This document shows, piece after piece, positions 10,468 to 56,018 of a stretch of DNA of 64,000 nucleotides (positions within the stretch are counted from its first letter, which is position 1; every line of letters starts with the position of its first letter). The position numbers and the translations under genes were made by a program. Source of the stretch: Staphylococcus phage BSwM-KMM1; sequence record OP902294.1; one strand, 5' to 3'. The notes below the pieces were generated by a model. That model saw only the letters and a program-made list of their open reading frames with translations, searched no databases and was not told the DNA's origin.

Positions 10468-10793
10468 TAAAAAACTTTAAGAAACCTATTGACATTAGGT
10501 TTCTTTTATTATATAATAGTACTATAAGAAATGTAGAAGGATATTTAGAGGAGTGATATAATGGAATTTATAGATAAAAATAATGTGATTAAATCTTACG
10601 ATATACCAAATGTTTATTTAAGAGGTTATGTATTACAGGCTTGTGATAAAAATGGAGATACAACTGCTTATGACGGTTACGACCAGCTACACTATAAAGG
10701 TGGTAGGATATTAACATTTCCTTTCGATAAACCAATAAGAAAAGCAAATGTATTATCAGGATACTATAAAGTATCTAAAAAGGAGGATATATT

Positions 10794-11300
10794 ATGATTT
10801 ACTTTGTTAGTGATTTACATTTTGGTCACGATAACATTAGAGAATTTGAAGCACCTACAAGAAGTCACTGGAACTCAGTAGAAGAAATGAATGAAGGTTT
10901 AATTGAGATGTGGAATAATACAATTACAAATAACGATATTGTTTATAATATTGGAGACTTCTTTTTCAATATGAAACCTTCTAAAGTAGAAGATATACTT
11001 AATAGACTAAATTACAAAGAGATGATATTGATTGCAGGTAACCATGACCATAAGAAACTTATAAGGATATATGAACGTAATGGTATTACAGTAAAGTACG
11101 CAGAGATGATTAAAAAGGATGGAAAGAGATTTTATCTAAGCCATTACCCTACACTAATAGGTAGAAAAAACATGTTTAATATTCACGGTCATATACATTC
11201 ACAATTAATGGATACAGATTATCACATTAATGTAGGCTATGATGTAGAGGGTAAGATTGCATATAGCTTTGATGATATTATAGATATTACGAAAAAATAA
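10794..11300 (+). CDS. metallophosphoesterase (calcineurin-like)
   Basis: DLHFGHDN, GDFFFN, GNHDHK and HGHIH motifs in canonical order. Confidence 0.75.
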   Translation: MIYFVSDLHFGHDNIREFEAPTRSHWNSVEEMNEGLIEMWNNTITNNDIVYNIGDFFFNMKPSKVEDILNRLNYKEMILIAGNHDHKKLIRIYERNGITVKYAEMIKKDGKRFYLSHYPTLIGRKNMFNIHGHIHSQLMDTDYHINVGYDVEGKIAYSFDDIIDITKK

Positions 11301-11993
11301 ATAAATACCTATTGACAGCAGGTATTTTTTATAGTATACTTTAGGTATAAAGAAAAAAGGAGAGGTTAATATGAATAACAAAACAATTGAAAGACTACAC
11401 AAGAAAGCAAATGGGGTAGTAAGTAATTCAGAAGGTCTTGAAGATGTAGGTTATGTACAGGCACATAAAATTATCAAGGAGTACCTTGATTTACCAGTAT
11501 CTGACTTTGAAAAGAGAGATGTAATGATTGAGTTACTACTAGCATTAGATAAAGCTAATAAATGCTCAGAATGATAAGGAGGTAGTAATATGATAAGTAT
11601 TATAATTTTAGTTGTGGGGTTACTATTGTTTCTAGCTAGTGGATACAAATTAATTTTAGGTAACTATTATAATGAAAAAGATTTAAAAATACTATTTACA
11701 TTTTTTGGTATTGGTGTTATACTATTGCTTGTAGGATTTATATTATAAAGGAGGAAATTATACATGAACTATAAAGAAGTATTAGAAACTATTAAAGAGA
11801 ATAAACCTTGTAAGGTGAGATTTACAGGAAGTATTATAGCAATTGTAAATGAGGAGTTTAATGGAGAAGGTGTACTACAGATTGATGCATCAAACATTAA
11901 TAAGGATGATTACATCAAGTTACAGCAGTATTGTTTAGAAAGAGATGACTATACTGTAGCAGGAGCTATTTTATTTTAAAAGGAGGTAACACA

Positions 11994-12901
11994 ATGATTA
12001 AAGTATCTTCAGAAATGGATTCAGAATATAAAACGATTGTACCGGAGAAATTCCCTAATGGTGAGATTAATTTTAAATATGATGACTTAGAATATTTAGT
12101 AGAAGGAGACCTACAGTTTGAGGTTTTCTTTAAATGGGAAAGTGATGCAGATTTAATGCATTTGTATATGTTTACTAAGTATCTAGAACAATTAGGTATC
12201 AAAGATAAAGCCGGGTTTTTAGACATTGCATACTTACCTTATAGTAGAATGGATAGAGTAGAAGAGGGTCATAGTAATATGTTTAGTCTTAAGTATATTG
12301 CAGAGTTTATTAATAGTCTTAATTACAAAACTATATGGTTAGCGGAACCTCATAGCCCTGTAACACAAAAGTTAATTAAAAATTCTTTTGCTATAAATGT
12401 TACAATTAAGCTATTAAACCAATATATTGAAATGTCTGAAAAACCTGTAACAGTTGTACTACCTGATAAAGGAGCATATGATAGATACCTATCAGATGTA
12501 GAGCGTGTATTATTAATCTCTGACGTTGAGAATTACTCAATTGTATATGGGGAAAAGGAACGTGATTTTGCTACAGGTAAGATTAAGGGAATTAAAATAA
12601 TTACAGATGAAAATACTATATACGATAACTGCATCATCCTAGATGATTTAACAAGTTATGGCGGGACTTTTGTAGGTTGTAAAAAGCTCTTGACAAACTA
12701 GGTGTTAATAGTGTATCATTAATATTGACCCATGCAGAGAAAGTATTTACAAATGGTAAACTATTTGAGTCAGGATTTAAAGATATTGTTGTAACAGACT
12801 CAATGTTACCTGATAGTCAGTGGGAGAAAGCTATTGCTAAACATAGAGCACAAGAAAACGGAACAAATTTACAAATAAAGGATATCGAAAGATATCTATA
12901 A
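11994..12901 (+). CDS. ribose-phosphate pyrophosphokinase (Prs)-like protein; possible ADPR-PP synthetase of an NAD+ reconstitution pathway (frameshifted at A-run ~12688-12693)
   Basis: The Prs-like N-terminal domain continues in the +1 frame as ...GGTFVGCKKALDKLGVNSVSLILTHAEKVF..VVTDSMLP (PRPP-binding-type C-terminus). Confidence 0.65.
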
Positions 12902-12918
12902 AAGGAGAAGAATAAATT

Positions 12919-14387
12919 ATGCTAAACCCAACATTAATGTGTGATTTCTATAAATTAAGTCACAGAGAACAATATCCGGAAGGTACAGAATTTGTATACA
13001 GTACACTAGTACCTAGAAGTAACAAGTATTATGAGCACAGTGATAATATTGTAGTATTTGGAATTCAATCGTTAGTTAAGAAGTACCTTATTGATATGTT
13101 TAATAAAGAATTCTTTAATAGACCTAAAGAGGAAGTTATTAATGAATACAAACGTACAGTTAAATTTACATTAGGGCATGAGAATCCTGAAGCTAAACAT
13201 TTAGAACAATTACATGACCTAGGTTACTTACCTATTGATGTAAGAGCCTTAAAGGAAGGTACAGTAGTTCATCCGAATACACCGGTTATGACAATTGAAA
13301 ATACACATGCAGATTTCTTTTGGTTAACTAATTACCTAGAAACAATTATTAGTACTCAAACATGGCAAGCAATGACAAGTGCTACACTAGCATATGATAT
13401 GCGTAAGATGTTAGATAAGTATGCATTAGAGACAGTAGGTAATACTGAAGCAGTAGATTTCAAGGTCATGACTTCAGTATGCGTGGTATGAGTTCCTTAG
13501 AAACAACTCAATTAAGTTCAGCAGGTCATGCTATTAGCTTTAAGGGTAGTGACACTGTACCTGTAGTGGACTTCCTAGAATCTTATTACAATGCAGATGT
13601 AGAAAAGGAAATAGTTGTTGCTTCTATACCTGCTACTGAGCATTCAGTTATGTGTGCAAACGGTGATTATGAAACAATGGATGAATACAAGACATACAAA
13701 CGTATGCTAACAGAAGTTTATCCAACAGGAATATTTTCTATTGTATCTGATACTTGGGACTTTTGGGGTAATATGACTAAAACTTTACCTAGACTAAAAG
13801 ATATTATTATGGAACGTGATGGGAAAGTAGTAATCAGACCTGATAGTGGAGACCCTGTTAAGATTATTTGTGGTGACCCCGATGCAGATACTGAGTATGA
13901 ACGTAAAGGTGCTGTAGAGGTACTTTGGGATACTTTTGGAGGTACTGAAACTGAAAAAGGGTATAAAGTACTAGATGAGCATGTAGGATTAATTTATGGG
14001 GATTCTATTAACTACGAGCGTGCACAACAAATTTGTGAGGGATTAAAAGCAAAAGGTTTTGCAAGTATTAACGTTGTATTAGGTGTAGGTAGTTTCTCTT
14101 ACCAGTTTAATACTCGTGATACTCATGGTTTTGCAATCAAAGCAACCTATGCTAAGATTAAAAATGAAGAGAAACTTATCTATAAGAACCCTAAAACAGA
14201 TAGTGGCAAACGTTCACACAAAGGTAGAGTGGCTGTTTATGAAGATGGTTCATGGGAAGATAACCTGAATCTTCACCAATGGTTAAATAAACAAAATGTT
14301 ACTCAGTTAGAAAAAGTATTTGAAGATGGTAAGTTATATAGAGACCAGTCACTAAGTGAAATTAGAGAAATAATTAAAAATAATTAA
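12919..14387 (+). CDS. nadV: nicotinamide phosphoribosyltransferase (NAMPT/NadV)-like protein; frameshifted at ~13463-13466 (aagGtcat)
   Basis: N-terminus MLNPTLMCDFYKLSHREQYPEGTEFVYS.. is NAMPT-like; the downstream frame reads QGHDFSMRGMSSLETTQLSSAGHAISFKGSDTV (the conserved HDF.MRG...F.GTDT region); restoring one G gives a ~490-aa protein. Confidence 0.8.
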
Positions 14388-15536
14388 TAAATATTTAAAC
14401 TCCCTATTGACAAAGGGAGTTTTTTATTGTATAGTATAAGTATAGTAAATAAAGAAGTGAAAGACAGGAGGAATAAATATGAATGCATTTCAAGCTAGGA
14501 CATTATCTATTATAACTAAACTAGAATCAAAGAAAGAATACGAAGAAATGGTTCCTGTGTACACGAGAAGTGCCTTAGAAGATATTAATAAAAGAATTGA
14601 GTACTCAGCTAGTATAGGTCAATCAGAACTAAAAGTAGAAACAATAGATTACCCTAATCTTAATAAAGGAGCATTTAAGTGTATTAAAGCAGAGCTAAAG
14701 AAAGAAGGATTTAAAGTATCGTTTAAAACTTTTAAAGAGAATTATGGTACTTCTATCCTTGTTTCTAAGGGGATAATTATTAAATGGTAAAGTAGGAGGA
14801 ATTATAATGAATTGTGAGAGAATAATTAAAGAGATGATGGAATATGCTATTAACAGTATGACTTTAGAAGAACAGAAACATTTCAGGAACGCAATGTTTG
14901 ATGCAGTTGGAGATTTAGATGAGGTAATACTTTTAGATGATAAGGATTGGCGTTAAAAGAATCATTTTATAGGAGGAATTGTAATGGATTATAATATTTA
15001 CGATAAGGAATACACAGAAAAAGAGAATGTGCTAGGTATTATATATGAAGCTTATAGTGATAATACTGATAGAGAGGTAGAAACTATATATAATAAAGCA
15101 GAAGCATGGGACAGAATGTGTGAAATGTTAAAAGATAAAGAGATGGATGATGAAGATTTTAGAAGAGAAATGATGGAACTATTCATTAGAACTGGTAAAC
15201 CTTTTAAAGAAAAAAGAATAGGTTTTGAGGAGGAATAGTTATGTATAGATTTTTATTATTTAGTTATCCTGAGTATTACCCTTGTGGTGGATTGGACGAT
15301 TTGATATTACAGTTTAATACAATAGAAGAACTTAAAGAAGTAGACACTTCTGATATATCTGATTATGTTGAAGTTTATGATTTTAAAGCAGGAAAAGAAA
15401 TATTTGGAGACTATTCACCATATAACAGGGAAGATAAAGTAGCTAAGTTAGTTTCTCATATGGAAGAGTATTTAAAATAACAATTTAAGCTGTAGCTCAT
15501 ATAAACAAATAAAAAACTAGCAAAGGAAGAGTTATA

Positions 15537-34002: not shown

Positions 34003-34497
34003 TTATTTAAACCTATTATATACGCAATGGACTCGAACATCTTCCATTACTTTTCCTAACAAATTCTGACCTTTCCAGTTAATTTCATCTAATATCTCAG
34101 GGTCATTTGCTTTAAGCCCTACTCCCCATATTTTATCATAAGGTGATGCTTCTACGAAATCTTTACGTAAATCTGTATCTAGTATTTTTTGTTTTAAGTG
34201 TGTAGTCATAAATTTATCTTTAACCACTTCTACCATAATGTCATATCTCACCTTATTCCATTGCTCTTCATTAAAATTACGAACTTTACGACCTAGACTT
34301 TTAGCATGGTTCGGATTCTTAGCATTTAATATTTCTCCTGCTATTTGCCAGTCTTTAAAATATTGAGCTTTACGCCACATAAAGGCTTGTTCTGAGTTAT
34401 TAAATGTTCTTCCTTTGTGTTTAAACTTTATTGGGTAAAAGTTAGAATAGATATCTTCCTTACCCCAAAACATAATGTATTCTTTAGTCTCTCTCAT
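34003..34497 (-). CDS. NADAR-family (DUF1768/YbiA-like) protein
   Basis: FWGKEDIYSNFYP..F...G..F.NSEQAFMWRKAQYF.D..........P..AK.LGRKV.NF....W...R...M......KF pattern typical of NADAR. Confidence 0.65.
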   Translation of the reverse strand: MRETKEYIMFWGKEDIYSNFYPIKFKHKGRTFNNSEQAFMWRKAQYFKDWQIAGEILNAKNPNHAKSLGRKVRNFNEEQWNKVRYDIMVEVVKDKFMTTHLKQKILDTDLRKDFVEASPYDKIWGVGLKANDPEILDEINWKGQNLLGKVMEDVRVHCVYNRFK

Positions 34498-34965: not shown

Positions 34966-35676
34966 TTAATCCTCCTCCAATTTAATAAGTGGTAAATCTA
35001 TATCTCTAAATACAGCACCTACATCACATAGCAACATATCATTATGTTCTTCTACTTCTCCACTAATTGTAGGTGTGTGCCCGCATACGTGAATAAAACC
35101 ATCATTACGTGGTTGGAAATCTCTTGACCATATTAATTGGTCTTTGGTTTGGTTTTTAGCTTGTTTCCAACTAACCCCTCCTGAATGCGTAAACTCATAC
35201 TTACCTTGCTTATATATAGTAGCACAGTTATGCATTAGTATCTTAAACTTTCTATAGTCTTCAGACTCTTTGAATTCCTTAATTTCTGCAACGAATTTAT
35301 CGAAGTATTCTCTATAAAACTCATTTTGATTTAACTCAAAGCTCTTTAATGGTGTTGTGTCAATACCATATGACTCTAGTGTTTCTATACAGTATCTTGC
35401 AAACCATTCAACATTATATATGTCCAGTTTATCAATATTTTCTATACTATGCCAAAATGCATCATCATGGTTACCTAGTAATGGTATAATGTCATCATCG
35501 TTTGAGACTCTTTCAAAAACGTAATTAACTACCTCTCTAGATTTTTCACCTCTATCAATATAATCCCCTAAAAATACTATAACATCTCCAGGTTGTCTTT
35601 CCTTATCTATCTTATTCATAATTGTTATTAGTTTTTCATATTCTCCATGAATATCAGGTACTACATATATAGCCAT
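34966..35676 (-). CDS. PPP-family Ser/Thr protein phosphatase (lambda-PPase/ApaH-like)
   Basis: VVPDIHGEY, GDYIDRG, GNHDD and HSGG motifs. Confidence 0.8.
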   Translation of the reverse strand: MAIYVVPDIHGEYEKLITIMNKIDKERQPGDVIVFLGDYIDRGEKSREVVNYVFERVSNDDDIIPLLGNHDDAFWHSIENIDKLDIYNVEWFARYCIETLESYGIDTTPLKSFELNQNEFYREYFDKFVAEIKEFKESEDYRKFKILMHNCATIYKQGKYEFTHSGGVSWKQAKNQTKDQLIWSRDFQPRNDGFIHVCGHTPTISGEVEEHNDMLLCDVGAVFRDIDLPLIKLEED

Positions 35677-40484: not shown

Positions 40485-41329
40485 TTATAGTCTACCCCCA
40501 AATAATTTTTTTACTTCTCTTAAGTTTTCTGATGAATCATTGTTTATGTTAATTCCTGTACTTGAATCAAAGATTACAGCATTATCAAGTAAATGTTCTT
40601 TAAGTTTATTTTCATAACTATCTTTTCCGGTTACACTACCATAACCACCCTGTGTTAAATCAGTCATATCAGGTTCAACTTCTAATACTCTAAACGAAAT
40701 TCTACGTAAAAATGAAGGGTTTACTAAGTAAAACGATGATTTAAAAACATTTAATCTTTGATAAGAGTGTTTTATATTGACAACAAATCCAGTAAGTTTA
40801 TTACTACGACCTGAATTTGATAGTTTACCTAAGTACAAATTAATACTATAACCTTTTGTTTCCAACGTTTGTATGGCACTTAGAAGTATAGCACCTCTAT
40901 ACGCAAGATTCTCAGGGTCTTCCATCCAACTTATACTAGAATTATAGAATACATCAATAACTTTCTTCTCTGCTTTGACTCTCTGTTGAGACATCATAGA
41001 ATTAGGTAAACCTTTTATAGCATTAGGTACATGAGGTTGGTAGCCTTCAGGAGCTATAACTGGTTTTCTTTTACAGATGTATCCATTCTGAATAAGGCAT
41101 CTGTCATCTTTTTAAGTTTAACAACCATATCATATGACTCTCTATCTCCTTTAACCATTAAGTTATATGCTTCATTAAAGCTATGAGTACCTGTGAAGTC
41201 ATAGTTACCTGTATCTGATGAATTGTCTCTACCTGAAACTCTATTCTTTTTTAAAGCAGAAAAGAAATCAGGTAGACCATCATATTTAATTACATTTAAT
41301 TCTGAGTTATCTATTAATCGTCTACCCAT
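40485..41329 (-). CDS. partner protein of the AAA+ ATPase (possible vWA/MIDAS-like; frameshifted at A-run ~41075)
   Basis: 41054..41329 and 40485..40997 join through ...MDTSVKRKPVIAPEGYQPHVPNAIKGLPNSMMSQQRVKAEKK. Confidence 0.35.
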
Positions 41330-41341
41330 TGTTTTTTCCTC

Positions 41342-42460
41342 CTATTCTAATCCTAGTTTATCCATAATAGTGTTGAAGTCCATTGAATCACTAGATGAAC
41401 TTTGAGTTTTTCTTGGCTCTTGCTTAGGTTCTTGTGTGATTCCTAAAAGATTTCTTGTTGCTTCTGTATATCTATTATCTTCAGGTAAAGAACTAATAAA
41501 TTGGTTAATCTCATCTTTTGGTACTGATTTGAAGATGATACTTTCTACAACAAACTCATCGTCCATTACTCCATCTAATTTACTTCCGTTAATAATTGCA
41601 CGCATTGAGAAAACATAAGGTAATCCTTTTTCTTCGTTTTCATATCTTAATTTCTGTACAAAGTTTACTAAGTCTTCATTACTTGATAATTGGTGTTCTA
41701 CTTTATTATCGTAATCAAATTCCACCTGAGCAAAACGGTCTAATGTAGCTCCATCAAGTTGCTGTCTACCTACATAAATGTGGTCTGCTCCTGTTCCCAT
41801 AGTATTACCTGCTGATACTACTCTAAAGTCTTCATGTGCTGATACACGACCAGTAGGGAAGTCGAAGTATTTATTTGCAATAGCTGAGTTAAGAATTAAT
41901 AATACTTCAGGAATAGAAGCATCCATTTCATCTAAGAAGAATAATCCTCCGTTTGTAAATGCTTTATAGAACTGAGTTTCATGAAACTTACCGTTTGCAT
42001 CAATAAATCCTGTTAATTTAAATTCTTGAGTGATTGCATTACTGAAATAGAAGTCTAGGTCTAATGCTTCTGCTACTTGTTCCAATACATGGTTCTTACC
42101 TGAACCTGCTCCACCTTTTAAAAATACTGGAATGTTTTGATTAACTAATTTTAGTATATCTTGATATCTGTAATGGAAGATTCCTGAGATGTCCTTAATT
42201 GTTTTTCCTTCTTGTTGTAATTCAATTTTAACTGGTAAATTATTAAGTTGCTCTTCTACATATGATTCAATTTGTTTTTTAACATCTGTAATAATGATTT
42301 CTCTACTTTCAGTTCCTGCTTTCTCAACAATTGCATCTACAATTGCTTGTTCATAAGGATTAGAGTTCTTCTCTCCTAGTTTTTCTGCTAAGTCTTTTGT
42401 TGTTTCCATTTGTTGTTCTACCAATTTCTCTAATCTTTCAATAGTATCTTGCTTTGCCAT
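41342..42460 (-). CDS. AAA+ ATPase (MoxR/AAA_5-like)
   Basis: Walker A FLKGGAGSGKNHV; Walker B GGLFFLDEMD. Confidence 0.65.
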   Translation of the reverse strand: MAKQDTIERLEKLVEQQMETTKDLAEKLGEKNSNPYEQAIVDAIVEKAGTESREIIITDVKKQIESYVEEQLNNLPVKIELQQEGKTIKDISGIFHYRYQDILKLVNQNIPVFLKGGAGSGKNHVLEQVAEALDLDFYFSNAITQEFKLTGFIDANGKFHETQFYKAFTNGGLFFLDEMDASIPEVLLILNSAIANKYFDFPTGRVSAHEDFRVVSAGNTMGTGADHIYVGRQQLDGATLDRFAQVEFDYDNKVEHQLSSNEDLVNFVQKLRYENEEKGLPYVFSMRAIINGSKLDGVMDDEFVVESIIFKSVPKDEINQFISSLPEDNRYTEATRNLLGITQEPKQEPRKTQSSSSDSMDFNTIMDKLGLE

Positions 42461-43471
42461 AATTATCATTCTCCTTTAATTTGTTATACATTTATTATAA
42501 TACAAGTATTTATATTTGTCAACAACTTTCTAAAACTTTTTTTAGTTGTTAATAAAAAAATACCTTACACCTATAACTTAACATAGGGTAAGGTAATTGT
42601 CAACAATTTTTTAAGAATATCTTGAATTAAAAAAGTCATCTATATATTTAGTATCGTGTGTATCTATATCATACATAAACATACAATTATATGTATGATT
42701 ATTCAATATTTCTAGCATGTTATGCATAGAAGTTGCATTATCTAATTCTTCTAAATCAATAGTTATCGTAAGTTCTTGTCCTTCATAAAGTATGTTTGCT
42801 ATATAATATGTTTTAACACCTTCCATTGTCCCATGCAAGGTTTCATTATGATTAAGAACTTCTATATCTAATGAAGGTAAATACTCTGAAAAATAATATC
42901 TACAGAAATATATAAAATTGTCTGTTCTTTTAGACACGAGTACTATCACCATATTTTATATTTCTTTCTAATCTTACATAATAGGTTTTAATCTTTTCTA
43001 CTTCTTTTTCAACCGCATCTTTTCTGCCTAAACGAGTAGTGTATTTTACAATGTTGAAAATCATCGAGTCTACAAAACCATCATATGAGAAGTGTTCTTC
43101 TAAGAAGGATATAACGTCCTTGCTACCTTTATAATGCTCAGGTAAATGTGCATCAACAGTTATATCGTAATAATCTTCTAGTAGGCTTATACTCTCTCCT
43201 AAGCTAGATAAAGCATACTCTAAGTCATTTGAGTCATTAGACCATTCTTTAGATACAGATAATGCATCTTCTATAATTGTTATCTTTAATTTATCTAAGT
43301 AATCATCAACCTGTTTTTGTGTTTTCATAAATTCTTTTGCGTTCATTTAATACCCTCCTAAATTATATATAAAAAAACACCCTGCTTGAGTACAAGCAAG
43401 GTGAAAAGGAAAGATATTATGGAAGTGTACTATCTAAGTACACCTCATAATATAACAGTTTTCCTTGCCAG

Positions 43472-44173: not shown

Positions 44174-46225
44174 TTAGGCAACCTCCTTAAATTCTTCTTT
44201 ATTTATTTTCTTAATATCTTTTTCTAATGCTTCTTTTAATTCATTAGGTAATTTATAAGCACCAATTGATTGTTGTTGACCTAATACATAACCATTATCT
44301 GTAATACGTATTTCCACTGTAAACCATGAATTCTCTAAATCTTCTTCTAATCTTGCTAATAATATTAAACAGCTATTCTTCAGAATTCTATTAGCATATC
44401 CTCCAACACAATGAGATAACATTCTACCTTCATCTTTTAATTTACTTACAGTATCTGCAGGAAGGAATTTTACTTTCCTACCGTCCTTTAATTTATAAGT
44501 TTTATCAATTATTTTTTCTAACTTATTATCATACTTAGCTTTAAGTTCTGCATCATCTAATTGTTGTTGTATAGATTGCTTCTCATCAGTAACAATATCA
44601 TGCTCTAGCTTCAGTGAAAAAGGCGTTAAGTTAACACTATCTAATGTTCTATACCCTTCTCTGATTAGTATTGATAAATCCTGTAAATAGTCAAGGTAAT
44701 AACTATCTAATACGTGTCCTGTTATACGTTGTCTATCCTGGGCATCTACATCTAAATAGTGAGTCATCTTTTTGTAGTTAGCAAAAGATATAGATAATAT
44801 TTCATTTACAATAGGTTTTACTTTTAAAGCATCTGTAACATTTCTTACATCCTGAACCATTAAAAATGTATCATCAAATAGTTGATGTAAATTAACCTCA
44901 TTGTGTAAATGATTATAGTAATTGTATAAGGTATATGAAAATCTTAAGTAATTACCTTGTTCAAATTTATTTAAAGTTAATAATTTTTTATAAGTCTGTT
45001 TTGTAAGATTGAAAGCTTCATGAACTTTCCATTTAGGATTTTTAGGTATATTAAATAGTAATGAATTTCTTTCAAATAATCCAAATTCCTCTAAGTTATT
45101 TATTTTATCAATATTTTTAACAACCTCTGCTAAGGTAGTTAAGTAGTTAGAAGTTGCTTTTTCCCCTTCGAGTGTTCTATATTTATTTCCTCCATAATTT
45201 ACACTACTATATACATCAAAATCATCAGGGCACCAACTAGAAAATCTAAAATCATTATTTCTTAGTGTTTCATCAATTATTTTAACAATAACATATTTAC
45301 TTAAATTAGGTGTTGAGTAATTTTTTAAAATAACATTTAATAAAACATCTAAACTTAATTCATTTTTATACTCACTTTTACTAATATCGTCTTTGTATAG
45401 ATTTAAAGTTAGTTCTTTATTAACAAGGCTATCTGTTAAGAAAACTTTAACTTCCCCTGTTTTAACATCGAATGAACTTTTATTTTCTAAAACCCATTTA
45501 TTACCCATATTATATTTATTTCTGATATGTTTAACTTTAAGACCAAAGGATGAATTATTCTCAGTACCTGGATGCATGTACCAAGCACTGCTATACAATG
45601 ATTCTGACATTTCCTTATAATACTTACTAGAGCCTTTTTCTGTATCTTCATTCATATAAGAAGTAATAGATGATTTTATTAAACCGTACTTACCTTGGTC
45701 TAGAATATCCATGATATCATCATTTAAATTATCCGCTACTTCTCTATACTCATCTAATTGTCTAGACTCATACCCCCATAATCGGTTTTCATTTTCTAAT
45801 TCTTTAATTTTTTCTTCTACATAACCTTTAGATTTTATTTGTCTTCTTCTCTTACTACCATATAAAGGAAATTCTTTTCTTTCTTCTCTACTGGATTCAA
45901 TATATTCTTTGTAACCTCTTTCTTTATTTTCTTCAATTACACCTTCAACTAATTTCTCAACTGTTTCATAAGGATTACCTGAAAAGTTTGTTACTTCTTT
46001 ATTACCGCATAATGCTAAGAATAAATGTATTTCTGTGGCAGTATCAAAATTAAATATATTATGAATATCTCTGAATAATTCTTTAGAGCCTAAATTAATT
46101 ATATTATTTTTCTTCTTCTTAAGAAATACGTCTTCATCTCCAATGTAGATACAGCCTTTATTGACTTTAGGTAAATTAATAATTTCTTGTTCTGTTAATC
46201 CTTTTTGTTTATATGTTATTGCCAT
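44174..46225 (-). CDS. large hypothetical protein (683 aa) with a PcfJ-like C-terminal motif
   Basis: C-terminus ...GRMLSHCVGGYANRILKNSCLILLAR. Confidence 0.4.
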   Translation of the reverse strand: MAITYKQKGLTEQEIINLPKVNKGCIYIGDEDVFLKKKKNNIINLGSKELFRDIHNIFNFDTATEIHLFLALCGNKEVTNFSGNPYETVEKLVEGVIEENKERGYKEYIESSREERKEFPLYGSKRRRQIKSKGYVEEKIKELENENRLWGYESRQLDEYREVADNLNDDIMDILDQGKYGLIKSSITSYMNEDTEKGSSKYYKEMSESLYSSAWYMHPGTENNSSFGLKVKHIRNKYNMGNKWVLENKSSFDVKTGEVKVFLTDSLVNKELTLNLYKDDISKSEYKNELSLDVLLNVILKNYSTPNLSKYVIVKIIDETLRNNDFRFSSWCPDDFDVYSSVNYGGNKYRTLEGEKATSNYLTTLAEVVKNIDKINNLEEFGLFERNSLLFNIPKNPKWKVHEAFNLTKQTYKKLLTLNKFEQGNYLRFSYTLYNYYNHLHNEVNLHQLFDDTFLMVQDVRNVTDALKVKPIVNEILSISFANYKKMTHYLDVDAQDRQRITGHVLDSYYLDYLQDLSILIREGYRTLDSVNLTPFSLKLEHDIVTDEKQSIQQQLDDAELKAKYDNKLEKIIDKTYKLKDGRKVKFLPADTVSKLKDEGRMLSHCVGGYANRILKNSCLILLARLEEDLENSWFTVEIRITDNGYVLGQQQSIGAYKLPNELKEALEKDIKKINKEEFKEVA

Positions 46226-46761: not shown

Positions 46762-47339
46762 CTACCTCCTTGAGTAATAATTAGCTTGTAGATAACATAT
46801 AAGTATAAGAACAAAGTTTACAAATTCAGTAGCTATAATATGAACATAGGTATGTGTTAAAACCATACTTGCAATTAGTGAAGCTAATCCTAATCCAATA
46901 ATAAGGAATAGAAATCTGTTTGTCCCTTCTGCACTTTTAGTTTTATAGAATGTTGTTATCTGAGTTACATACGCAAGGATAATAGTAATAGTTGCTACAG
47001 TTTGTGTCAAGGCTGTAAAGTCACCTAATAAAAATAGTAACAATGAGAACACAATAATAAAAGGGATAGAGAAATAATCCTTTTTCTATATGAAGCTACT
47101 AATAAGCAAACAATACCTAGAGTTAAATTAAGACCAACTGAAACTACTTGAAACATTGAAGCCTCAGTTAGTAATAAATTGTAAAAACTAATACCTACAG
47201 TAGCTACAATTAAATACCAAAAATAACTACTAACACCTTTAACACTGTCTGATTTAACTAAAGCTATTAGACCTGGTATATAACCTACTGTAACTAATAT
47301 AGCATACACTATGCTTAAATAATGTGATAAATTATCCAT
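46762..47339 (-). CDS. polytopic membrane protein (two overlapping ORFs; probable frameshift ~47030-47050)
   Basis: Both ORFs are hydrophobic and overlap by 28 nt. Confidence 0.35.
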
Positions 47340-47955
47340 TTTTCTCTCCTAATTTCTCTAATCTGTTAAGGACTTCTTCCCAAGAAATAAATCCTTCTCC
47401 ATTTGTTAATTCCAAAACCATACCATATACAAATTGGTTTGTACTAAACTCTGCTCTATCCGGGTCACTGTAACCTTTACCATGCCCTTGACGAATGTCT
47501 GAACAGTAAATTAAAACAGGTTTGTCTAATATTTTTTCTAATTCTTCAATTTCATCTTGTAGTGTATCATATTCATCTGTCTCATTACCATCAAAATCGA
47601 ACCTTACAATATCTGCTGTCTCGTCTAGTTTATTAATTGTTTCTTGTGCTTGGTGTTTAATACCTAATAATATGCCTAACTCTGCAATTGTCCCTAATCC
47701 TTCATTAAGGATATCAAACACAAAAATATCTGATTCTTGCATAGCTTTAAAGTCATTGTTTAATATACGCTCTGCTAGTTTAGTTTGTTCTGCGTTAGCT
47801 TTGTCATTAATTGACTTATCTTTGTGTGGGCTATAAGGAGTGACTCCTACAATACCTTCTACTTGTTTATGTTGCTTGTCTCTGTAATCTACCATTGCAT
47901 CATTTAAAATATGACCACCCATATATATTACTTTATCGTTAATTTTATTTACCAT
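47332..47955 (-). CDS. nucleoside 2-deoxyribosyltransferase-like protein
   Basis: Position and size match the Ndt gene between the PhoH and membrane-protein genes of K-like phages; Rossmann-like N-terminus. Confidence 0.45.
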   Translation of the reverse strand: MVNKINDKVIYMGGHILNDAMVDYRDKQHKQVEGIVGVTPYSPHKDKSINDKANAEQTKLAERILNNDFKAMQESDIFVFDILNEGLGTIAELGILLGIKHQAQETINKLDETADIVRFDFDGNETDEYDTLQDEIEELEKILDKPVLIYCSDIRQGHGKGYSDPDRAEFSTNQFVYGMVLELTNGEGFISWEEVLNRLEKLGEKNG

Positions 47956-48248: not shown

Positions 48249-48988
48249 TTACCATTTAAAATTGTCTGCGTACTGAGCTAATTTAGAACGGAAATTAACT
48301 GTAAAACTATGGAATACTGCACCTTCGTATTTTTTAAAGTACTCCATATAATCCCCAAAACCTGATTTACTTTCATTTTTTAAATCTATTTGTTTAAAGT
48401 TTCCTTCTACTATTACTGTTGAATTATTTGTATGAACCCTTGTAAGAACTTTTTAAGTTCACTTCGTTTAAAGTTTTGGGCTTCGTTTATAATTATAGTA
48501 GCATCCCTTAGGTTACCGCCTCGTAAAAACAGATGAGATATCTGAGACACCCAACAATTACCTTCTTTATCTTCTTTAACATTGTCTTCCATCATTAACA
48601 TTTCAGTAATTACTTGTTCAGGTCTCATATTAAGTTCAATAATAGCATCATGTAACCCCATAAAATAAGCCATTTCTTTTTCTGTCTGATTACCTGGTCT
48701 TGAACCTAAATCTTCTGATACTGGTGAAATTATAAATACTAGCTTTCTATTTTTGTTAAGGTAATCTGCATAGGCACAAGCCACTGAACACATTGTTTTT
48801 CCTGTACCTGCTTGACTCTCGTTCCAAAGTATTTCAACATTATCATTGAAGAAATCTTCACAAAAATCTAATTGTTCTGTTGTAGCCATTTCTAAAAAGT
48901 CATTAAATACTAAATGTTCTCCCATGTTATATCTTACTTTAGGATAATCTTTTAACTTAAAGTCTAATTCTTTTAGTTGTATTGCCAT
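48249..48988 (-). CDS. phoH: PhoH-like ATPase (frameshifted at ~48414, ttcttaCaagg)
   Basis: Walker A SQAGTGKTMCSVA; the C-terminus continues in another frame as RVHTNNSTVIVEGNFKQIDL. Confidence 0.7.
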
Positions 48989-49640: not shown

Positions 49641-50066
49641 TTATATTCCTATAGATTTCTTTGCAAGCACATCAGCGTGTTCATTCCATTTATTACCAGT
49701 ATGAGCTTTTACTTTTACAAAATTAATATCTATTGACTTTTGATACTCTCTTACCATCTTAATATATGTCTGACTTAAAATATTTCTTGCTGACCAGGTA
49801 CCTTCATACCAATGAATGAGCCCTATATAGTCTATATAAACAATTGCTTGTTTATAACCTAACTTAATAGCCTCCTCAATACCGTAACAACAAGCTAATA
49901 TTTCACCTGCAACATTATTATACTTTATTAATCCTGGTTTGTCAACACTTTTACTAATTTCCGATATAATATTTTCATCTGTACTTACTAATACAGCTCC
50001 TGAACCTACCTTGCCTTTATTATAGGAAGAACTACCATCAGTGTATATATTTACTCTATCCTGCAT
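49641..50066 (-). CDS. rnhA: ribonuclease H
   Basis: MQDRVNIYTDGSS..GSGAVL (RNase HI catalytic Asp motif); RBS ggagga. Confidence 0.6.
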   Translation of the reverse strand: MQDRVNIYTDGSSSYNKGKVGSGAVLVSTDENIISEISKSVDKPGLIKYNNVAGEILACCYGIEEAIKLGYKQAIVYIDYIGLIHWYEGTWSARNILSQTYIKMVREYQKSIDINFVKVKAHTGNKWNEHADVLAKKSIGI

Positions 50067-50898
50067 ATTTATAATCCTCCATGAAGTGAGGGAAATCACA
50101 GTCAGAATAAATATCTCTACAAAATGATATAGAAATAGAATCAAAATCAAAACATTTAAAACAATGTTCTTTTACCTCTACCTTATTTCTAGCAACTACA
50201 CTAAATTTAAATCCATCTGCCACTACAGTAAATAATCCTCTTTTCATAAAACAAATACCTCCACTAAGTTTATTTTAAATTAATAACTAACTCAATAAAT
50301 GATTTAATCGTTTTGTTTTTACCTTCATCAATATCTGAGAAGAAGTTACTTATACTAGTGTCTTCATCAAATAAATCTTCCACATCATCAAATTTATTTA
50401 GAATATCAATAACACCATAACCTTTTTCTGTTATATATTCATATAGGTCTTCACCGTCTTCTGACAGAGTAGCTTCCATTTTACCATTTTTACTTTCAAT
50501 TAGATATAAAGTATTAAGTACTTTAACTGAGTCTACAACTACACTATAATTGCTTAGTGTCGGGTACTCAGTATATAGAATTTCAATATTAGTATTCATA
50601 TAACTATCAATTACAGAGTTTACTGTATCTCTTTTAACTCTGACACGTTGTTCTTTCTTATAGTAGGGAATGCGTCATCGTACTCTACTAATGAGTTTCT
50701 ATCTGTATTTAATAATTTATCTAATGAAGATAATAAAACTATCTTGTATTGATTATCGGGTAAACTATCTGTAATTTCCATAATAGTTAAAAAGTATCTT
50801 CACCTAAAACATTATTTACGTCTTGTAACTCGAAAGAATCTACCATTTCAATAGTGTCGTCTATATCTTCTGTAGTCATCAAGAAGTTAACTAAATTA

Positions 50899-53148: not shown

Positions 53149-53456
53149 TACATTTCTCCTTTTTCTATTTCTTTTATTAAGCTATTTAAAGCTTTTTCCT
53201 CTTTGTCTATTTCTAGTTTATCTGCTTTGGTAACAAGAGATTGTCTACGGTCATTCAAAAACTGTTTTTTGTTTTTGATATACTGCTCTAACTCATAGTC
53301 ATTTAATCTACCTTGTCTAACCATTTCCCTGTACTGTCTTCGTATATTACTCTTATGTTCTTTCATAGCTAGAAAGTCAAATAGATAACTTATACCAAAA
53401 CCTACAAGGACTAAGAAAACAATAAAAATAGATAATATTGTTAAAAATAATGCCAT
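53148..53456 (-). CDS. small membrane protein
   Basis: N-terminal TM MALFLTILSIFIVFLVLVGFGISYLF. Confidence 0.45.
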   Translation of the reverse strand: MALFLTILSIFIVFLVLVGFGISYLFDFLAMKEHKSNIRRQYREMVRQGRLNDYELEQYIKNKKQFLNDRRQSLVTKADKLEIDKEEKALNSLIKEIEKGEM

Positions 53457-53530
53457 GCAATTCCTCCTTTATTTGATTACATATATAACTATACACTATG
53501 TATTATGATTTGTCAACAATTTTTTGCAAA

Positions 53531-53560
53531 AAATAGACGGATTTTAAATCCGTCTAAATT
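53531..53560. terminator. bidirectional hairpin terminator after the endolysin gene
   Basis: agacggattttaaatccgtct flanked by A/T runs. Confidence 0.6.
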
Positions 53561-53567
53561 ATAATGT

Positions 53568-55051
53568 TACTTGAATGTACCCCAGGCAACACCAGGTATA
53601 TGGTTTGGTGGAACACCTTGACATGTTCTAACAGGGCAATATACTCTGTTACCATTATAAGCGTTATAACCAATCCAAATATGACCTGCTTGAATACAAA
53701 CTTCGTCATATACAATTGTAGCTCCTGCCGGTAAGTTACCTCCTACTGGAGCGTTTAAGAATGGGGAACCTATTCTAGTTACTATAGGTTGGTTACCATT
53801 AACAAACGTTGCCGATTCCGGTTTGTACCAAGTTCCGAACTGGTTCTTTTTCCAAGAACCTGTAACTGGTCTAGTTGCCGGTGTACTTGCACTACTTGTT
53901 TTACCTTTTTAACTACAGTAGAACTTGAAGTTCCGTTACTCATGTAGTTTTTAATTTGTTTAATGAAATAATCTTTTAATTTATTCATTATTGCTTGAGA
54001 TGGTCTACCTTGAGTTACTGGATTGAATCCTGTATGAAGAACCATTGAACGGTGGGGACAAGCTGTAGGAACGAACTCCATGTGTAATCTTACAGTCTTA
54101 CGGTTAGGAGTAAGACCCCATTCTTTAAATTTCTCCGCAGTAAATTGGAATACTGCTTGTTCGTTTTTAAGGAATTGAGCATCACTAGCACTCATTGATT
54201 GACAGACTTCAATACCTGCAAATCTAAAGTTACCTGAGTTAGCTCCTGTTCCATCACCTGTATGCCAAGCAATTTGATTCTTAGCATCTATTGCTTCCCA
54301 TACATAACCTTCTGAACCATAGTAGTGAGCAATACCATTAGCGTATCTAGCATAACCGGCTTTAGCTAAAGAGTTTTCATATTGTTGTCCTGAAGAACGA
54401 CCCGCATCGTTGTGTATTACCATTCCTTCAGGTTTCTTACCACGTTTATCCATTGTATAGTTAATATGGTTCTTAGAAACTTTTAGTGTTGCTTTCTTTT
54501 TAGGTGCAGGAGTTTTACTTGCACTTTTCTTAGCTGTTTCTTTTTAATAGTAGTTCCTGCTTTTACAGGTATCTCTATAAAGTGAGTTAATCCATAATAA
54601 TTATCTACACGTTTTGTAGGCTTTTTGTTAGCATAACCATTCCAGTTTTGCTCCAAAATAGTAAATGTAGAAGTATTACCTCCATCATATACAATACCTA
54701 TATGACCCCACTGTTGATAACTACCTTCTGTATAAACAGCAATCCAACCTTTTTAGGTACTGTAGAAGGTTTATTTTCATGTATTTTAAACCCTGTACCA
54801 TAGTTCTGTTTAATTTGGTCTTTAGCGTTACCCCAAGTTCTTACTTTATTATCTGTTAACCATAACACATAATCAGTAATTAAGTCTTGACATTGTGCGT
54901 GATAATATTTATCTACATCAATTGCCCCTGCTTCCATTACACCAAATGAAGGGTCATAACTCGTTGCTTTCTTAACTCTATAGGGACTATCTACTGTTCC
55001 TTTTGCGTAAGCGTCTAGGCGTTTATTTATTTCTGCTTGAGTCTTAGCCAT
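53568..55051 (-). CDS. lysK: endolysin LysK-like (CHAP + amidase_2 + SH3b), intronless; broken by three homopolymer frameshifts (~53905, ~54537, ~54741)
   Basis: [42 protein letters not shown]...[12 protein letters not shown] (CHAP); [21 protein letters not shown]...[21 protein letters not shown] (amidase); the C-terminus in a shifted frame ends ...GVAWGTFK. Confidence 0.85.
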
Positions 55052-55867: not shown

Positions 55868-55937
55868 CACACCCTCTAAGAATCGAACTTAGACTAACAG
55901 GTAAAAGACCTGACGTGCTAACATTACACTAAGGGTG
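55868..55937 (-). tRNA. tRNA (anticodon ambiguous; UUU-type loop, possibly distorted by a homopolymer error)
   Basis: minus strand: ACACCCT acceptor, TA, GTGT/GCAC D-stem, anticodon-arm-like CAGG-TCTTTTA-CCTG, CTAAG-TTCGATT-CTTAG T-arm, AGGGTGT acceptor. Confidence 0.5.
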
Positions 55938-55944
55938 TTAATTT

Positions 55945-56018
55945 ACGACTCATACGAGATTCGAACTCGTACTCTCTGCCGTGACAGGGCAGTATGTTAA
56001 CCAGTTACATCAATGAGC
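55945..56018 (-). tRNA. tRNA-Asp (GTC)
   Basis: minus strand: GGCTCAT / TG / ATGT-AACTGGTTA-ACAT / CTGCC-CTGTCAC-GGCAG / ACGAG-TTCGAAT-CTCGT / ATGAGTC-G; full canonical cloverleaf. Confidence 0.75.

What the first reader, a model, noticed from the sequence alone, without database searches (positions are those of the whole stretch)
11994..14387. Adjacent Prs-like and NAMPT-like genes form a candidate anti-defense NAD+ reconstitution operon
A PRPP-synthetase homolog sits immediately upstream of a nicotinamide phosphoribosyltransferase homolog. This is the two-gene architecture described for NAD+ reconstitution pathway 1 (NARP1), in which an ADPR-pyrophosphate synthetase plus a nicotinamide-ADPR transferase rebuild NAD+ from the ADPR and nicotinamide left by NAD+-depleting defenses such as Thoeris, DSR, SIR2 systems and SEFIR. 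The same phage also encodes a NADAR protein (34003..34497) and a nucleoside 2-deoxyribosyltransferase. These genes have long been annotated as generic NAD salvage in K-like phages; the counter-defense reading is the newer one.
Basis: partly seen in the sequence, partly recalled or inferred. Interest (0 to 1): 0.6.

Follow-up and report, generated by a model that had tools for sequence, protein, structure and literature searches.

The report
Known NARP1 operon, frameshifted by sequencing errors
This is the already-catalogued two-gene phage pathway (NARP1: Adps + Namat) that rebuilds NAD+ after bacterial defences destroy it, here in a Staphylococcus Kayvirus-like phage; both genes look broken in this sequence, but almost certainly only because the assembly drops bases in homopolymer runs.

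Summary
The two adjacent genes exist at the stated coordinates. They belong to the NARP1 families Adps and Namat, not to canonical Prs and Nampt.

**Namat.** The repaired NAMPT-like protein is 61% identical to the crystallised SPβL1 Namat. It carries the published Namat-specific adenine-clamp motif exactly (GSFSYQFNTRD) and all catalytic residues.

**Adps.** The repaired Prs-like protein is 38% identical to the biochemically validated SPβL1 Adps. It fails every curated Prs cut-off. It keeps the catalytic Lys and the acceptor residues, and has the Firmicute-phage Adps PP loop.

**Not new.** The supplementary tables of the original NARP1 paper already list the orthologues of Staphylococcus phages K, G1 and MCE-2014.

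In this window each gene carries a 1-nt deletion that breaks its frame: A6→A5 at 12681-12685, and CC→C at 13461.

**Why this is probably an artefact.**
- The window as a whole shows length-dependent homopolymer compression. 39% of 6-mers, 83% of 7-mers and all runs of 8 or more are shortened, and none is lengthened.
- The same errors also break the endolysin three times, the terminase region and other conserved ORFs.
- namat downstream of its lesion still has dN/dS of 0.04-0.15 in the restored frame.

**Verdict.** A known system with ordinary context and low novelty. There is a modest residual chance that the namat lesion is real.

The parts
11309..11340 (+). Sigma-70-like promoter (CTATTGACA, 17 nt, TATACT) upstream of three small ORFs and the adps-namat pair
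   Evidence: The promoter scan gives 11 of 12 matches. It carries the extended -35 motif CTATTGACA, which occurs 11 times in the window against 0.8 expected, always on the + strand. Function is inferred.
11695..11723 (+). Second promoter-like site (TTTACA, 17 nt, TATACT, with an extended -10 TG)
   Evidence: One search gives 10 of 12 matches. No terminator-like hairpin on the + strand lies between this site and 14397.
11981..11986 (+). Shine-Dalgarno sequence AGGAGG, 7 nt before the adps ATG
   Evidence: Read directly from the sequence.
11994..12901 (+). adps (ADPR-pyrophosphate synthetase, PRPS-like). As written it is split into ORFs 11994-12701 (235 aa) and 12725-12901 (58 aa, other frame). 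Restoring one A gives a 302-aa protein.
   Evidence: Sequence and ORF evidence. It is 38% identical to the validated SPβL1 Adps at E=4e-45. TIGR01251 scores 80 bits against a cut-off of 113, and there is no Pfam hit. Conserved residues are F20, R85, H120, D158, K188, D217 and D218, with PP loop LTSYGGTF. The closest database relatives are all intact at 302 aa.
12681..12685 (+). A5 run where relatives have A6. This 1-nt deletion creates the adps frameshift and the premature stop at 12699-12701.
   Evidence: 39% of the A/T 6-mers of the comparator are shortened in this window.
12902..12907 (+). Shine-Dalgarno sequence AAGGAG for namat, inside the 17-nt intergenic gap
   Evidence: Read directly from the sequence.
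12919..14387 (+). namat (nicotinamide ADPR-transferase, Nampt-like). As written it is split into ORFs 12919-13491 (190 aa) and 13479-14387 (302 aa). Restoring one C gives a 489-aa protein.
   Evidence: Sequence and ORF evidence. It hits PDB 9W5X/9W5W (SPβL1 Namat) at E=6e-201 with 61% identity, against about 1e-64 for human Nampt. The clamp motif is G391-S-F-S-Y-Q-F-N-T-R-D401. The catalytic residues are F186, D212, H242 and R307. dN/dS is 0.01-0.15 on both sides of the lesion.
13458..13462 (+). TTTCA where relatives have TTTCCA. A 1-nt deletion (one C, at 13461) creates the namat frameshift and the stop at 13489-13491.
   Evidence: Deletions at runs of 1-2 bases are rarer in this window, about 0.07 per kb.
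14397..14422 (+). Terminator-like hairpin (9-bp stem) followed by a T-run, 10 nt after the namat stop. Its loop holds the -35 box of the next promoter.

Best explanation
The locus is a two-gene NARP1 operon of a Kayvirus-like (Twortvirinae) Staphylococcus phage.

**Mechanism (inferred from homology to characterised enzymes).** NAD+-depleting defences such as Thoeris, DSR, SIR2-HerA and SEFIR cleave NAD+ to ADPR and nicotinamide. [quoted passage not shown] Namat joins nicotinamide to ADPR-PP, giving NAD+ and PPi. This restores the NAD+ pool that the phage needs.

**The frameshifts.** The two frameshifts seen in this window are most likely assembly artefacts, of the homopolymer-compression and deletion-biased kind. 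They are probably not biology, so the real phage most probably encodes intact proteins of 302 aa and 489 aa.

**Shown here**
- Gene identity, adjacency and signals.
- Residue-level family signatures.
- The window-wide error profile.

**Inferred**
- Enzymatic activities.
- The counter-defence phenotype.
- Co-transcription.
For: **Namat**
- E=6e-201 and 61% identity to the crystallised SPβL1 Namat.
- Exact match to the Namat-only clamp motif. Xcc Nampt serves as a negative control and reads GGALLQKVDRD at the same position.
- K36-Y37 in the clamp loop fits the published Lys-type variant.
- Catalytic residues F186, D212, H242 and R307 are conserved.

**Adps**
- Identity is 37-38% to the validated SPβL1 and Fado Adps and 20% to E. 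coli Prs.
- TIGR01251 scores 80 bits. Validated Adps score 96-138 bits and canonical Prs 423 bits.
- K188 aligns with SPβL1 K162 and ICP1 K185.
- The PP loop is LTSYGGTF, against LSSFGGTF and LSSYGGTF in validated Adps and MIDTGGTL in Prs.
- The AF2 model of an 89%-identical homolog has a PRPS fold at pLDDT 93.

**Operon**
- The gap is 17 nt, each gene has its own RBS, and there is no internal terminator. A hairpin follows directly after namat.
- Kayvirus orthologues are listed in the NARP1 paper's tables.

**Artefact**
- Homopolymer indels of 1-2 nt are 87 deletions against 3 insertions versus PG-2021_19, and 49 against 4 versus RefSeq MCE-2014.
- The shortened fraction rises with run length: 0.1% of 3-mers, 39% of 6-mers, 83% of 7-mers and 100% of runs of 8 or more.
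- The endolysin is broken three times, and the terminase-region ORF and others are broken too.
- 2.9 clean single-base deletions are expected in 2.4 kb and 2 are observed.
- namat dN/dS downstream of the lesion is 0.04-0.15.
- All database relatives are intact.
Against: - No Kayvirus Adps or Namat has been assayed. Activity and phenotype are inferred from proteins that are 38% and 61% identical.
- The PP loop differs from the only structurally characterised Adps, ICP1 (D216→S221, G217→Y222). Donor-site details may therefore differ.
- The namat lesion (CC→C) is not a long-homopolymer error. That error class occurs at only about 0.07 per kb in this window, which gives P≈0.10 of at least one in the gene. 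A real mutation cannot be excluded without reads.
- As written, neither gene can make a full-length protein.
- In a related Listeria herellevirus the homologous genes peak at mid-infection (PMC12282133). That is later than the immediate-early timing one might expect.
Confidence: 0.8

Rival explanations
1. The frameshifts are real. This phage lineage carries a decayed NARP1 in which one or both genes are pseudogenes, for example after propagation on hosts that lack NAD+-depleting defences.
For: Both genes are interrupted in the sequence as given. The namat lesion is at a CC dinucleotide. That error class is rare in this window, with 3 clean cases in 40.7 kb. One GenBank relative, OR062950.1, is annotated with two NAMPT CDSs, so split genes do appear in records.
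Against: The window-wide compression of homopolymers depends on run length. It also breaks genes that must work, such as the endolysin (three times) and the terminase-region ORF. Two lesions in 2.4 kb is below the background expectation of 2.9. namat shows strong purifying selection downstream of the lesion, at dN/dS 0.04-0.15. There are no further stops or indels in either gene in the restored frame.
Confidence: 0.1
2. This is classical NAD salvage rather than NARP1. The Prs homolog makes PRPP from ribose-5-phosphate, the NAMPT homolog makes NMN, and a host adenylyltransferase finishes NAD+. This is the pre-2024 annotation.
For: GenBank annotations of all relatives read 'ribose-phosphate pyrophosphokinase' and 'nicotinamide phosphoribosyltransferase'. 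SPβL1 Namat retains about half of human Nampt's NMN-forming activity in vitro (PMC12774641), so some PRPP-dependent flux is possible. A 2025 Listeria-phage paper still reads the pair this way.
Against: The Prs-like protein fails all curated Prs models and matches no Pfam model. It groups with validated Adps. The NAMPT-like protein carries the adenine clamp that enforces preference for ADPR-PP. In the 30 neighbouring and minus-arm ORFs scanned, which is not an exhaustive set, no Nmnat was seen.
Confidence: 0.07
3. The interruptions are functional recoding or phase-variation sites. For example, -1 ribosomal slippage on A-AAA-AG at 12680-12686 would restore exactly the ancestral ...CKKALD... reading.
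For: A -1 slip of tRNA-Lys from AAG (12684-12686) to AAA (12683-12685) would put GCT (12686-12688) in the A site and reproduce the intact protein sequence. This is read from the sequence.
Against: All relatives encode the genes in a single frame. There is no slippery motif at the namat site. More than 80 equivalent deletions are scattered through unrelated genes and intergenic DNA. No stimulatory structure was sought or is evident.
Confidence: 0.01

Closest known systems
NARP1 of Bacillus phage SPβL1 (Adps WIT26982.1 + Namat, PDB 9W5X/9W5W; Osterman et al., bioRxiv 10.1101/2024.02.11.579819; PMC12774641)
   Same: - The architecture is the same two adjacent genes, adps then namat.
- Namat is 61% identical, with an identical type of clamp motif and the same catalytic residues.
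- Adps is 38% identical, with the same catalytic Lys and a near-identical PP loop (LTSYGGTF against LSSFGGTF).
   Different: - The host genus differs (Staphylococcus) and so does the phage family (Herelleviridae myovirus against an SPβ-like temperate siphovirus).
- The clamp loop uses K36-Y37 instead of R40.
- Namat has A362→S363 and Y396→F397.
- The Adps is 30 aa longer, with an insert at 166-182 and a longer C-terminal tail.
- It has not been tested experimentally.
Kayvirus orthologues already catalogued as NARP1 (Staphylococcus phages K, G1, ISP, A5W, MCE-2014; Supp. Tables 1-2 of Osterman et al.)
   Same: The genes are orthologous and sit at the same genomic position. The locus is 90-94.5% identical at the nucleotide level, and the protein lengths after repair are the same (302 and 489 aa).
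   Different: The window's Adps is at most 89% identical to any protein in a database of 5.8 billion sequences, so this is a distinct lineage. The window copy carries two frame-breaking 1-nt deletions, which are probably artefacts.
Vibrio phage ICP1 Adps (structures in PMC13586617)
   Same: The fold is PRPS-like. The acceptor and catalytic residues are conserved: F18/F20, R87/R85, H121/H120, D161/D158, K185/K188 and D212-D213/D217-D218 (ICP1/window).
   Different: Identity is only 25%. The PP loop is ICDGAASF in ICP1 and LTSYGGTF here. ICP1 F92 has no counterpart. The tail after the TDS motif is 35 aa here and 19 aa in ICP1.
NARP2 (Vibrio phage KVP40 Nampt + Nmnat) and canonical Nampt (human, Xanthomonas)
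   Same: They share the Nampt fold and the nicotinamide-ribosyl coupling chemistry. Pfam NAPRTase + NAMPT_N and NCBIfam NF006629 are matched.
   Different: The window protein has the adenine clamp that canonical Nampt lacks. It is paired with Adps rather than Nmnat.
NARP1-AP (Adps - Macro-domain phosphatase Adpp - Namat; bioRxiv 10.64898/2026.01.28.702374)
   Same: The Adps and Namat core is the same.
   Different: No gene, and no Macro domain, lies between or beside adps and namat here (17-nt gap). By the paper's logic this operon would not overcome aRES-type defence.

Membership tests
NARP1 - Namat | Selectivity-clamp helix motif GS-X-Φ1-X-Φ2-X-Φ3-TRD, with aromatic residues at the X positions (PMC12774641) | tested here: met
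   The window reads G391-S-F-S-Y-Q-F-N-T-R-D401. SPβL1 reads GSFTYQYNTRD. Xcc Nampt reads GGALLQKVDRD.
NARP1 - Namat | Selectivity-clamp loop (β1-β2) whose third residue is Arg, Lys or Tyr. With Lys or Tyr, the next residue does the stacking. | tested here: met
   SPβL1 R40 aligns with window K36, which is followed by an inserted Y37. That Y37 stacks on adenine is inferred, not modelled.
NARP1 - Namat | Nampt-like catalytic core: SPβL1 F189, D215, R306, D13', Y15' and the catalytic His | tested here: met
   The window has F186, D212, R307, D9, Y11 and H242.
NARP1 - Adps | PRPS-like protein that groups with validated Adps and not with canonical Prs | tested here: met
   Identity is 38% at E=4e-45 to SPβL1 Adps and 20% to E. 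coli Prs. TIGR01251 scores 80 bits here, 96-138 bits for validated Adps and 423 bits for E. coli Prs. There is no Pfam hit. No formal tree was built.
NARP1 - Adps | Catalytic Lys (SPβL1 K162, ICP1 K185) and acceptor residues R87, H121, D161, D212, D213 and F18 | tested here: met
   The window has K188, R85, H120, D158, D217, D218 and F20. These positions are invariant or nearly invariant in 45 homologs.
NARP1 - Adps | Remodelled PP loop (ATP-donor site) conserved among Adps homologs | tested here: met
   LTSYGGTF matches the validated Firmicute-phage Adps (SPβL1 LSSFGGTF, Fado LSSYGGTF). It differs from Prs (MIDTGGTL) and from the ICP1/Bas63 subtype (ICDG[AG][AR][ST]F).
NARP1 - Adps | Loss of the C-terminal α11-α12 filament and regulatory module of PRPS | tested here: inconclusive
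   The tail after the TDS motif is 35 aa here, 44 aa in E. coli Prs, 30 aa in SPβL1 and 19 aa in ICP1. The AF2 model of an 89%-identical homolog shows H276-288 and E292-296, then only a 4-residue helix stub at 298-301. The long terminal helix is therefore truncated, but one helix is retained. Adps structures were not in the fold library.
NARP1 - operon | adps and namat adjacent on one strand | tested here: met
   The gap is 17 nt, both genes are on the + strand, there is no terminator between them, and a hairpin follows namat.
NARP1 - operon | Both genes intact and translatable | tested here: not met
   Each gene has one 1-nt deletion. This is best explained by the assembly's homopolymer and deletion error profile. 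It is therefore a property of the sequence record rather than evidence against family membership.
NARP1 - function | ADPR + ATP → ADPR-PP, ADPR-PP + Nam → NAD+, and rescue from NAD+-depleting defence | not testable with these tools
   This needs biochemistry and phage genetics. No Kayvirus-specific study was found.
NARP1-AP | Macro-domain ADPR-1''-phosphate phosphatase (Adpp) within the operon | tested here: not met
   No ORF lies between the two genes. The flanking ORFs 11371-11574, 11764-11979 and 14479-14790 have no Pfam hit. ORF 10794-11300 is a calcineurin-like metallophosphatase, not a Macro domain.
NARP2 | PRPP-preferring Nampt without an adenine clamp, paired with an Nmnat | tested here: not met
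   The clamp is present and the partner is Adps. No Nmnat was found among the 30 neighbouring and minus-arm ORFs scanned, but that scan was not exhaustive.
Canonical class I PRPP synthetase (Prs) | Score above the curated NCBIfam or Pfam thresholds for ribose-phosphate diphosphokinase | tested here: not met
   The best score is TIGR01251 at 80.4 bits against a cut-off of 113. All equivalog models score far below their cut-offs, and there is no Pfam match.

The most novel reading that the evidence does not exclude
At least the namat CC→C lesion is real, and possibly both lesions are. This Kayvirus-like lineage would then be a natural NARP1-null or NARP1-decaying phage. Alternatively the adps lesion could be bypassed by -1 slippage on A-AAA-AG. 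Either way it would offer a natural experiment on the cost and benefit of NAD+ reconstitution in staphylococcal phages.
Probability: 0.08. Interest if true: 0.35.

Novelty: already known. Interest (0 to 1): 0.15.

Why it matters
Kayviruses are leading candidates for therapy against S. aureus. Knowing that they carry NARP1 helps predict which host defences they can overcome: Thoeris I, DSR, SIR2-HerA and SEFIR, but by published logic not aRES or Metis. That knowledge already exists in the supplementary tables of the NARP1 paper. This window therefore adds only one more, slightly divergent, member.

The practically useful result is a data-quality warning. This assembly is riddled with homopolymer deletions. 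Any 'pseudogene', 'split gene' or 'novel small ORF' call made from it, including in this locus, should be distrusted until the sequence is polished.

Tried and rejected
- **Exact look-up of the truncated ORF.** The 235-aa product is not on record in public assemblies, so the source and its sequencing technology could not be identified.
- **PDB sequence search for an Adps structure.** Only canonical PRPS entries came back. The ICP1 Adps coordinates are evidently not in the copy. The Foldseek PDB library (to April 2026) likewise returned only PRPS.
- **Pfam on the Adps.** No hit. This is informative only as a negative.
- **Accessory NARP1 genes.** I looked for a Macro-domain Adpp and for RyR-domain proteins next to the operon. 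None was found. The upstream metallophosphatase at 10794-11300 is of the calcineurin type. I found no evidence that ties it to NARP1.
- **NARP3 (PnuC + NadR).** Considered and rejected as unrelated in gene content.
- **Kayvirus-specific NARP1 literature.** Searches found none.
- **Identity of PDB 9KE8/9KEO.** This is the second-best Namat hit, with clamp GAQTYQRNTRD. I tried to identify it through the literature and found no paper.
- **Real pseudogenisation.** Considered and largely rejected on the window-wide error profile, on dN/dS and on the intactness of all relatives.
- **Formal Adps/Prs phylogeny.** Not built. I judged the HMM-score and identity contrasts to be sufficient.
Full report
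**What is at the coordinates**

The window is AT-rich phage DNA (about 30% GC). Its closest public relatives are Staphylococcus Twortvirinae/Kayvirus genomes. Over the locus the best match is MCE-2014 at 94.5% nucleotide identity, and 204 of the 206 matching records are Staphylococcus phages.

On the + strand an ATG at 11994 is preceded by AGGAGG and opens a Prs-like reading frame. Its last segment ends at 12899-12901. Seventeen bases later, an ATG at 12919 preceded by AAGGAG opens a NAMPT-like frame that ends at 14385-14387.

Neither gene is a single ORF in this sequence. The Prs-like gene reads 235 aa, then a stop, and its remaining 58 aa are in another frame. The NAMPT-like gene reads 190 aa, then a stop, and the remaining 302 aa are in another frame.

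I aligned the locus with the intact genes of phages JDYN and MCE-2014. Exactly two single-base gaps appear. An A6 run is A5 in the window (12681-12685), and TTTCCAAGG is TTTCAAGG (the C at 13461). Everything else is substitutions.

**Are the frameshifts real?**

I compared the whole window with two independent genomes.

Against PG-2021_19 there are 149 indels whose length is not a multiple of three. Of the 90 that are 1-2 nt long and lie in homopolymers, 87 are deletions in the window and 3 are insertions. Against the annotated RefSeq genome MCE-2014 the same class gives 49 deletions and 4 insertions.

The effect depends on run length, as shown in the table. No run is ever longer in the window.

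| Run length in comparator | Runs shortened in window |
|---|---|
| 3 | 0.1% |
| 4 | 0.9% |
| 5 | 5% |
| 6 | 39% |
| 7 | 83% |
| 8-9 | 100% |

The window contains no A/T run of 8 or more and only 11 of length 7. Its relatives have 45-58 runs of length 7.

The deletions also break conserved genes:
- The endolysin (496 aa in MCE-2014, annotated as lysin) is broken three times, at about 53.9, 54.55 and 54.75 kb.
- The large ORF in the terminase region is broken at 60.3 and 60.6 kb.
- A 300-aa ORF is broken twice.
- A 450-aa ORF is broken three times within 75 nt.
- The relative's ORF is at least 30 aa longer at 27 of 42 sites (PG-2021_19) and 34 of 77 sites (MCE-2014). The window's ORF is longer at only 4 and 9 sites.

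A phage with these lesions would not be viable. This is the signature of a deletion-biased, homopolymer-compressing assembly.

The background rate of clean single-base deletions is 1.23 per kb. That predicts 2.9 in the 2.4-kb locus, and two are seen.

The adps lesion (A6→A5) is the commonest error class. The namat lesion (CC→C) belongs to a rarer class. Only three other clean cases occur in 40.7 kb, which gives P≈0.10 for at least one in the gene. I therefore keep roughly a 10% chance that it is genuine.

Two further observations argue against old pseudogenes:
- Read in the restored frame, namat downstream of its lesion has dN/dS of 0.036 against MCE-2014 and 0.147 against JDYN. These values are similar to those for the upstream part.
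- All close homologs of the Prs-like protein in a 5.8-billion-protein collection (62% identity or more) are 302-304 aa and match over the full query length.

The exact truncated product is not on record anywhere, so the source could not be traced.

**What the genes are**

For the homology tests I restored one base at each lesion.

*Namat.* The 489-aa NAMPT-like protein matches PDB 9W5X/9W5W at E=6e-201. Human Nampt structures score about 1e-64. PMC12774641 identifies 9W5X and 9W5W as the Namat of Bacillus phage SPβL1. Identity is 61.3% over 478 aligned residues.

That paper defines what separates Namat from Nampt. It is an adenine 'selectivity clamp' made of two elements:
- A helix with the consensus GS-X-Φ1-X-Φ2-X-Φ3-TRD, with aromatic X.
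- A loop whose third residue is Arg, Lys or Tyr. When it is Lys or Tyr, the next residue does the stacking.

The window reads G391-S-F-S-Y-Q-F-N-T-R-D401, an exact fit. In the loop it has K36 followed by Y37, where SPβL1 has R40. As a negative control, Xanthomonas Nampt reads GGALLQKVDRD at the same place.

The catalytic residues are all present: F186, S187, R189, D212, H242, R307, D309 and D9/Y11.

*Adps.* The 302-aa Prs-like protein shows the following:
- It has no Pfam match and fails every curated NCBIfam Prs model. The best is TIGR01251 at 80 bits, against a cut-off of 113.
- Four validated or catalogued Adps proteins score 96-138 bits on that model. E. coli Prs, recalled from memory and validated by the same scan, scores 423 bits.
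- It is 38% identical to the biochemically characterised SPβL1 Adps (E=4e-45).
- It is 38% identical to the genetically validated Fado Adps, 25% to the structurally characterised ICP1 Adps and 20% to E. coli Prs.
- It conserves the catalytic lysine, which is K188 here, K162 in SPβL1 and K185 in ICP1.
- It conserves the acceptor residues R85, H120, D158 and D217/D218, and the adenine-stacking F20 (residue roles from PMC13586617).
- Its PP loop, LTSYGGTF, is that of the Firmicute-phage Adps (SPβL1 LSSFGGTF, Fado LSSYGGTF). It is not that of Prs (MIDTGGTL), and it also differs from the ICP1/Bas63 subtype.

An AlphaFold model of the closest intact homolog has pLDDT 93 and a PRPS fold, with TM 0.65-0.69 to human and E. 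coli PRPS at 18-20% identity. That homolog is 89% identical to the repaired protein with no gaps. The long C-terminal helix of PRPS is reduced to a four-residue stub, but one preceding helix remains. I therefore score the 'loss of α11-α12' criterion as inconclusive.

**Context and operon form**

- Sigma-70-like promoters lie at 11312-11340 and 11695-11723.
- No terminator-like hairpin on the + strand occurs before the one at 14397-14422, which directly follows namat.
- The pair is therefore probably co-transcribed with two or three small ORFs of unknown function.
- There is no gene between adps and namat, and no Macro-domain protein nearby. This is plain NARP1 and not the NARP1-AP variant that counters aRES.
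- NARP3 (PnuC + NadR) is unrelated.
- NADAR (34003-34497, - strand) and the nucleoside 2-deoxyribosyltransferase (47332-47955, - strand) are real. They lie 20-33 kb away on the opposite arm. Any functional link to NARP1 is speculation.

**How it most likely works**

By homology, Adps pyrophosphorylates the distal ribose of ADPR using ATP. Namat then ligates nicotinamide to ADPR-PP and regenerates NAD+ from the two products of NADase defence effectors (Osterman et al.; PMC13586617; PMC12774641). The individual steps are shown for the SPβL1, Fado, Bas63 and ICP1 proteins. They are only inferred here.

**Novelty**

Osterman et al. searched about 20,000 phage genomes and found NARP1 in 859. Their Supplementary Table 1 lists the Prs/Adps homologs of Staphylococcus phages K, G1, ISP, A5W, S25-3, phiSA12 and MCE-2014, marked 'Namat within 10 genes: Yes'. 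Their Table 2 lists the G1 and MCE-2014 NAMPT homologs as 'Adps-associated'.

The counter-defence reading of this Kayvirus gene pair is thus already published at the bioinformatic level. I found no Kayvirus-specific experimental test. A 2025 paper on a related Listeria phage still describes the pair as NAD scavenging, with peak expression at mid-infection.

**Verdict**

The system is already known. The apparent gene disruption is best explained by assembly error.

Noticed in passing
window 1-64000 (e.g. 361, 2990, 12681, 34669, 41073, 53911, 54546, 54755, 60614, 62407, 63699-63773): The assembly shows systematic, length-dependent homopolymer compression. Against PG-2021_19 there are 87 deletions and 3 insertions. 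39% of 6-mers, 83% of 7-mers and all runs of 8 or more are shortened. The window has no A/T run of 8 or more. Any frameshift, 'split gene' or small-ORF call from this window is suspect.
   Followed up: yes
window ~53400-54900 (- strand): The endolysin (496 aa, a single CDS annotated as lysin in MCE-2014) is broken into three or more pieces by 1-nt deletions at about 53908, 54546 and 54754. The terminase-region ORF (60295, 60614), a 300-aa ORF (62407, 62741) and a 450-aa ORF (63699, 63736, 63773) are broken in the same way.
   Followed up: yes
It is annotated only as 'COG3236' in MCE-2014. It lies on the opposite arm, about 20 kb from NARP1, and no link to the operon was shown.
   Followed up: partly
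window 47332-47955 (- strand): A nucleoside 2-deoxyribosyltransferase domain protein (PF05014, 32.6 bits against a cut-off of 28.8). Its neighbours include PhoH (48413-48988) and RNase H (49641-50150).
   Followed up: partly
window 10794-11300 (+) and 34966-35676 (-): Two calcineurin-like metallophosphoesterases. The first lies about 700 bp upstream of adps, behind its own promoter. It is not the Macro-domain Adpp of NARP1-AP. Whether it acts on any ADPR-derived molecule is unknown.
   Followed up: partly
window 10479-10505 and 14397-14422; motif also at 11309, 17918, 18475, 21606, 26856, 27136, 27608, 28023, 58161: The extended -35 motif CTATTGACA occurs 11 times against 0.8 expected, always on the + strand. 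At two sites it sits in the loop of a terminator-like hairpin, so the terminator and the next promoter overlap. This looks like a recurring compact terminator-promoter module.
   Followed up: partly
window 55868-56020 (- strand): Two adjacent tRNA genes, tRNA-Lys(TTT) and tRNA-Asp(GTC).
   Followed up: no
PDB 9KE8/9KEO (external): An unpublished or unlocated 495-aa 'nicotinamide phosphoribosyltransferase' structure is the second-best match to the window Namat (E=1e-157). Its clamp helix reads GAQTYQRNTRD, so the first aromatic is replaced by Gln. Its origin and substrate preference could not be determined from the literature held.
   Followed up: partly
L002 (MCE-2014) 1593-2470 vs window ~11980: MCE-2014 and several other Kayviruses carry three extra small ORFs (about 870 bp) inserted immediately upstream of adps. 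These are absent from the window and from JDYN. The region upstream of NARP1 is therefore a variable insertion spot.
   Followed up: no
window 40485-40997, 41342-42469, 44174-46225 (- strand): A DUF7192 protein (E=2e-47), an AAA_5 (dynein-related) ATPase and a 683-aa protein with a PcfJ-like C-terminal domain. All are unannotated ('hypothetical') in MCE-2014.
   Followed up: no
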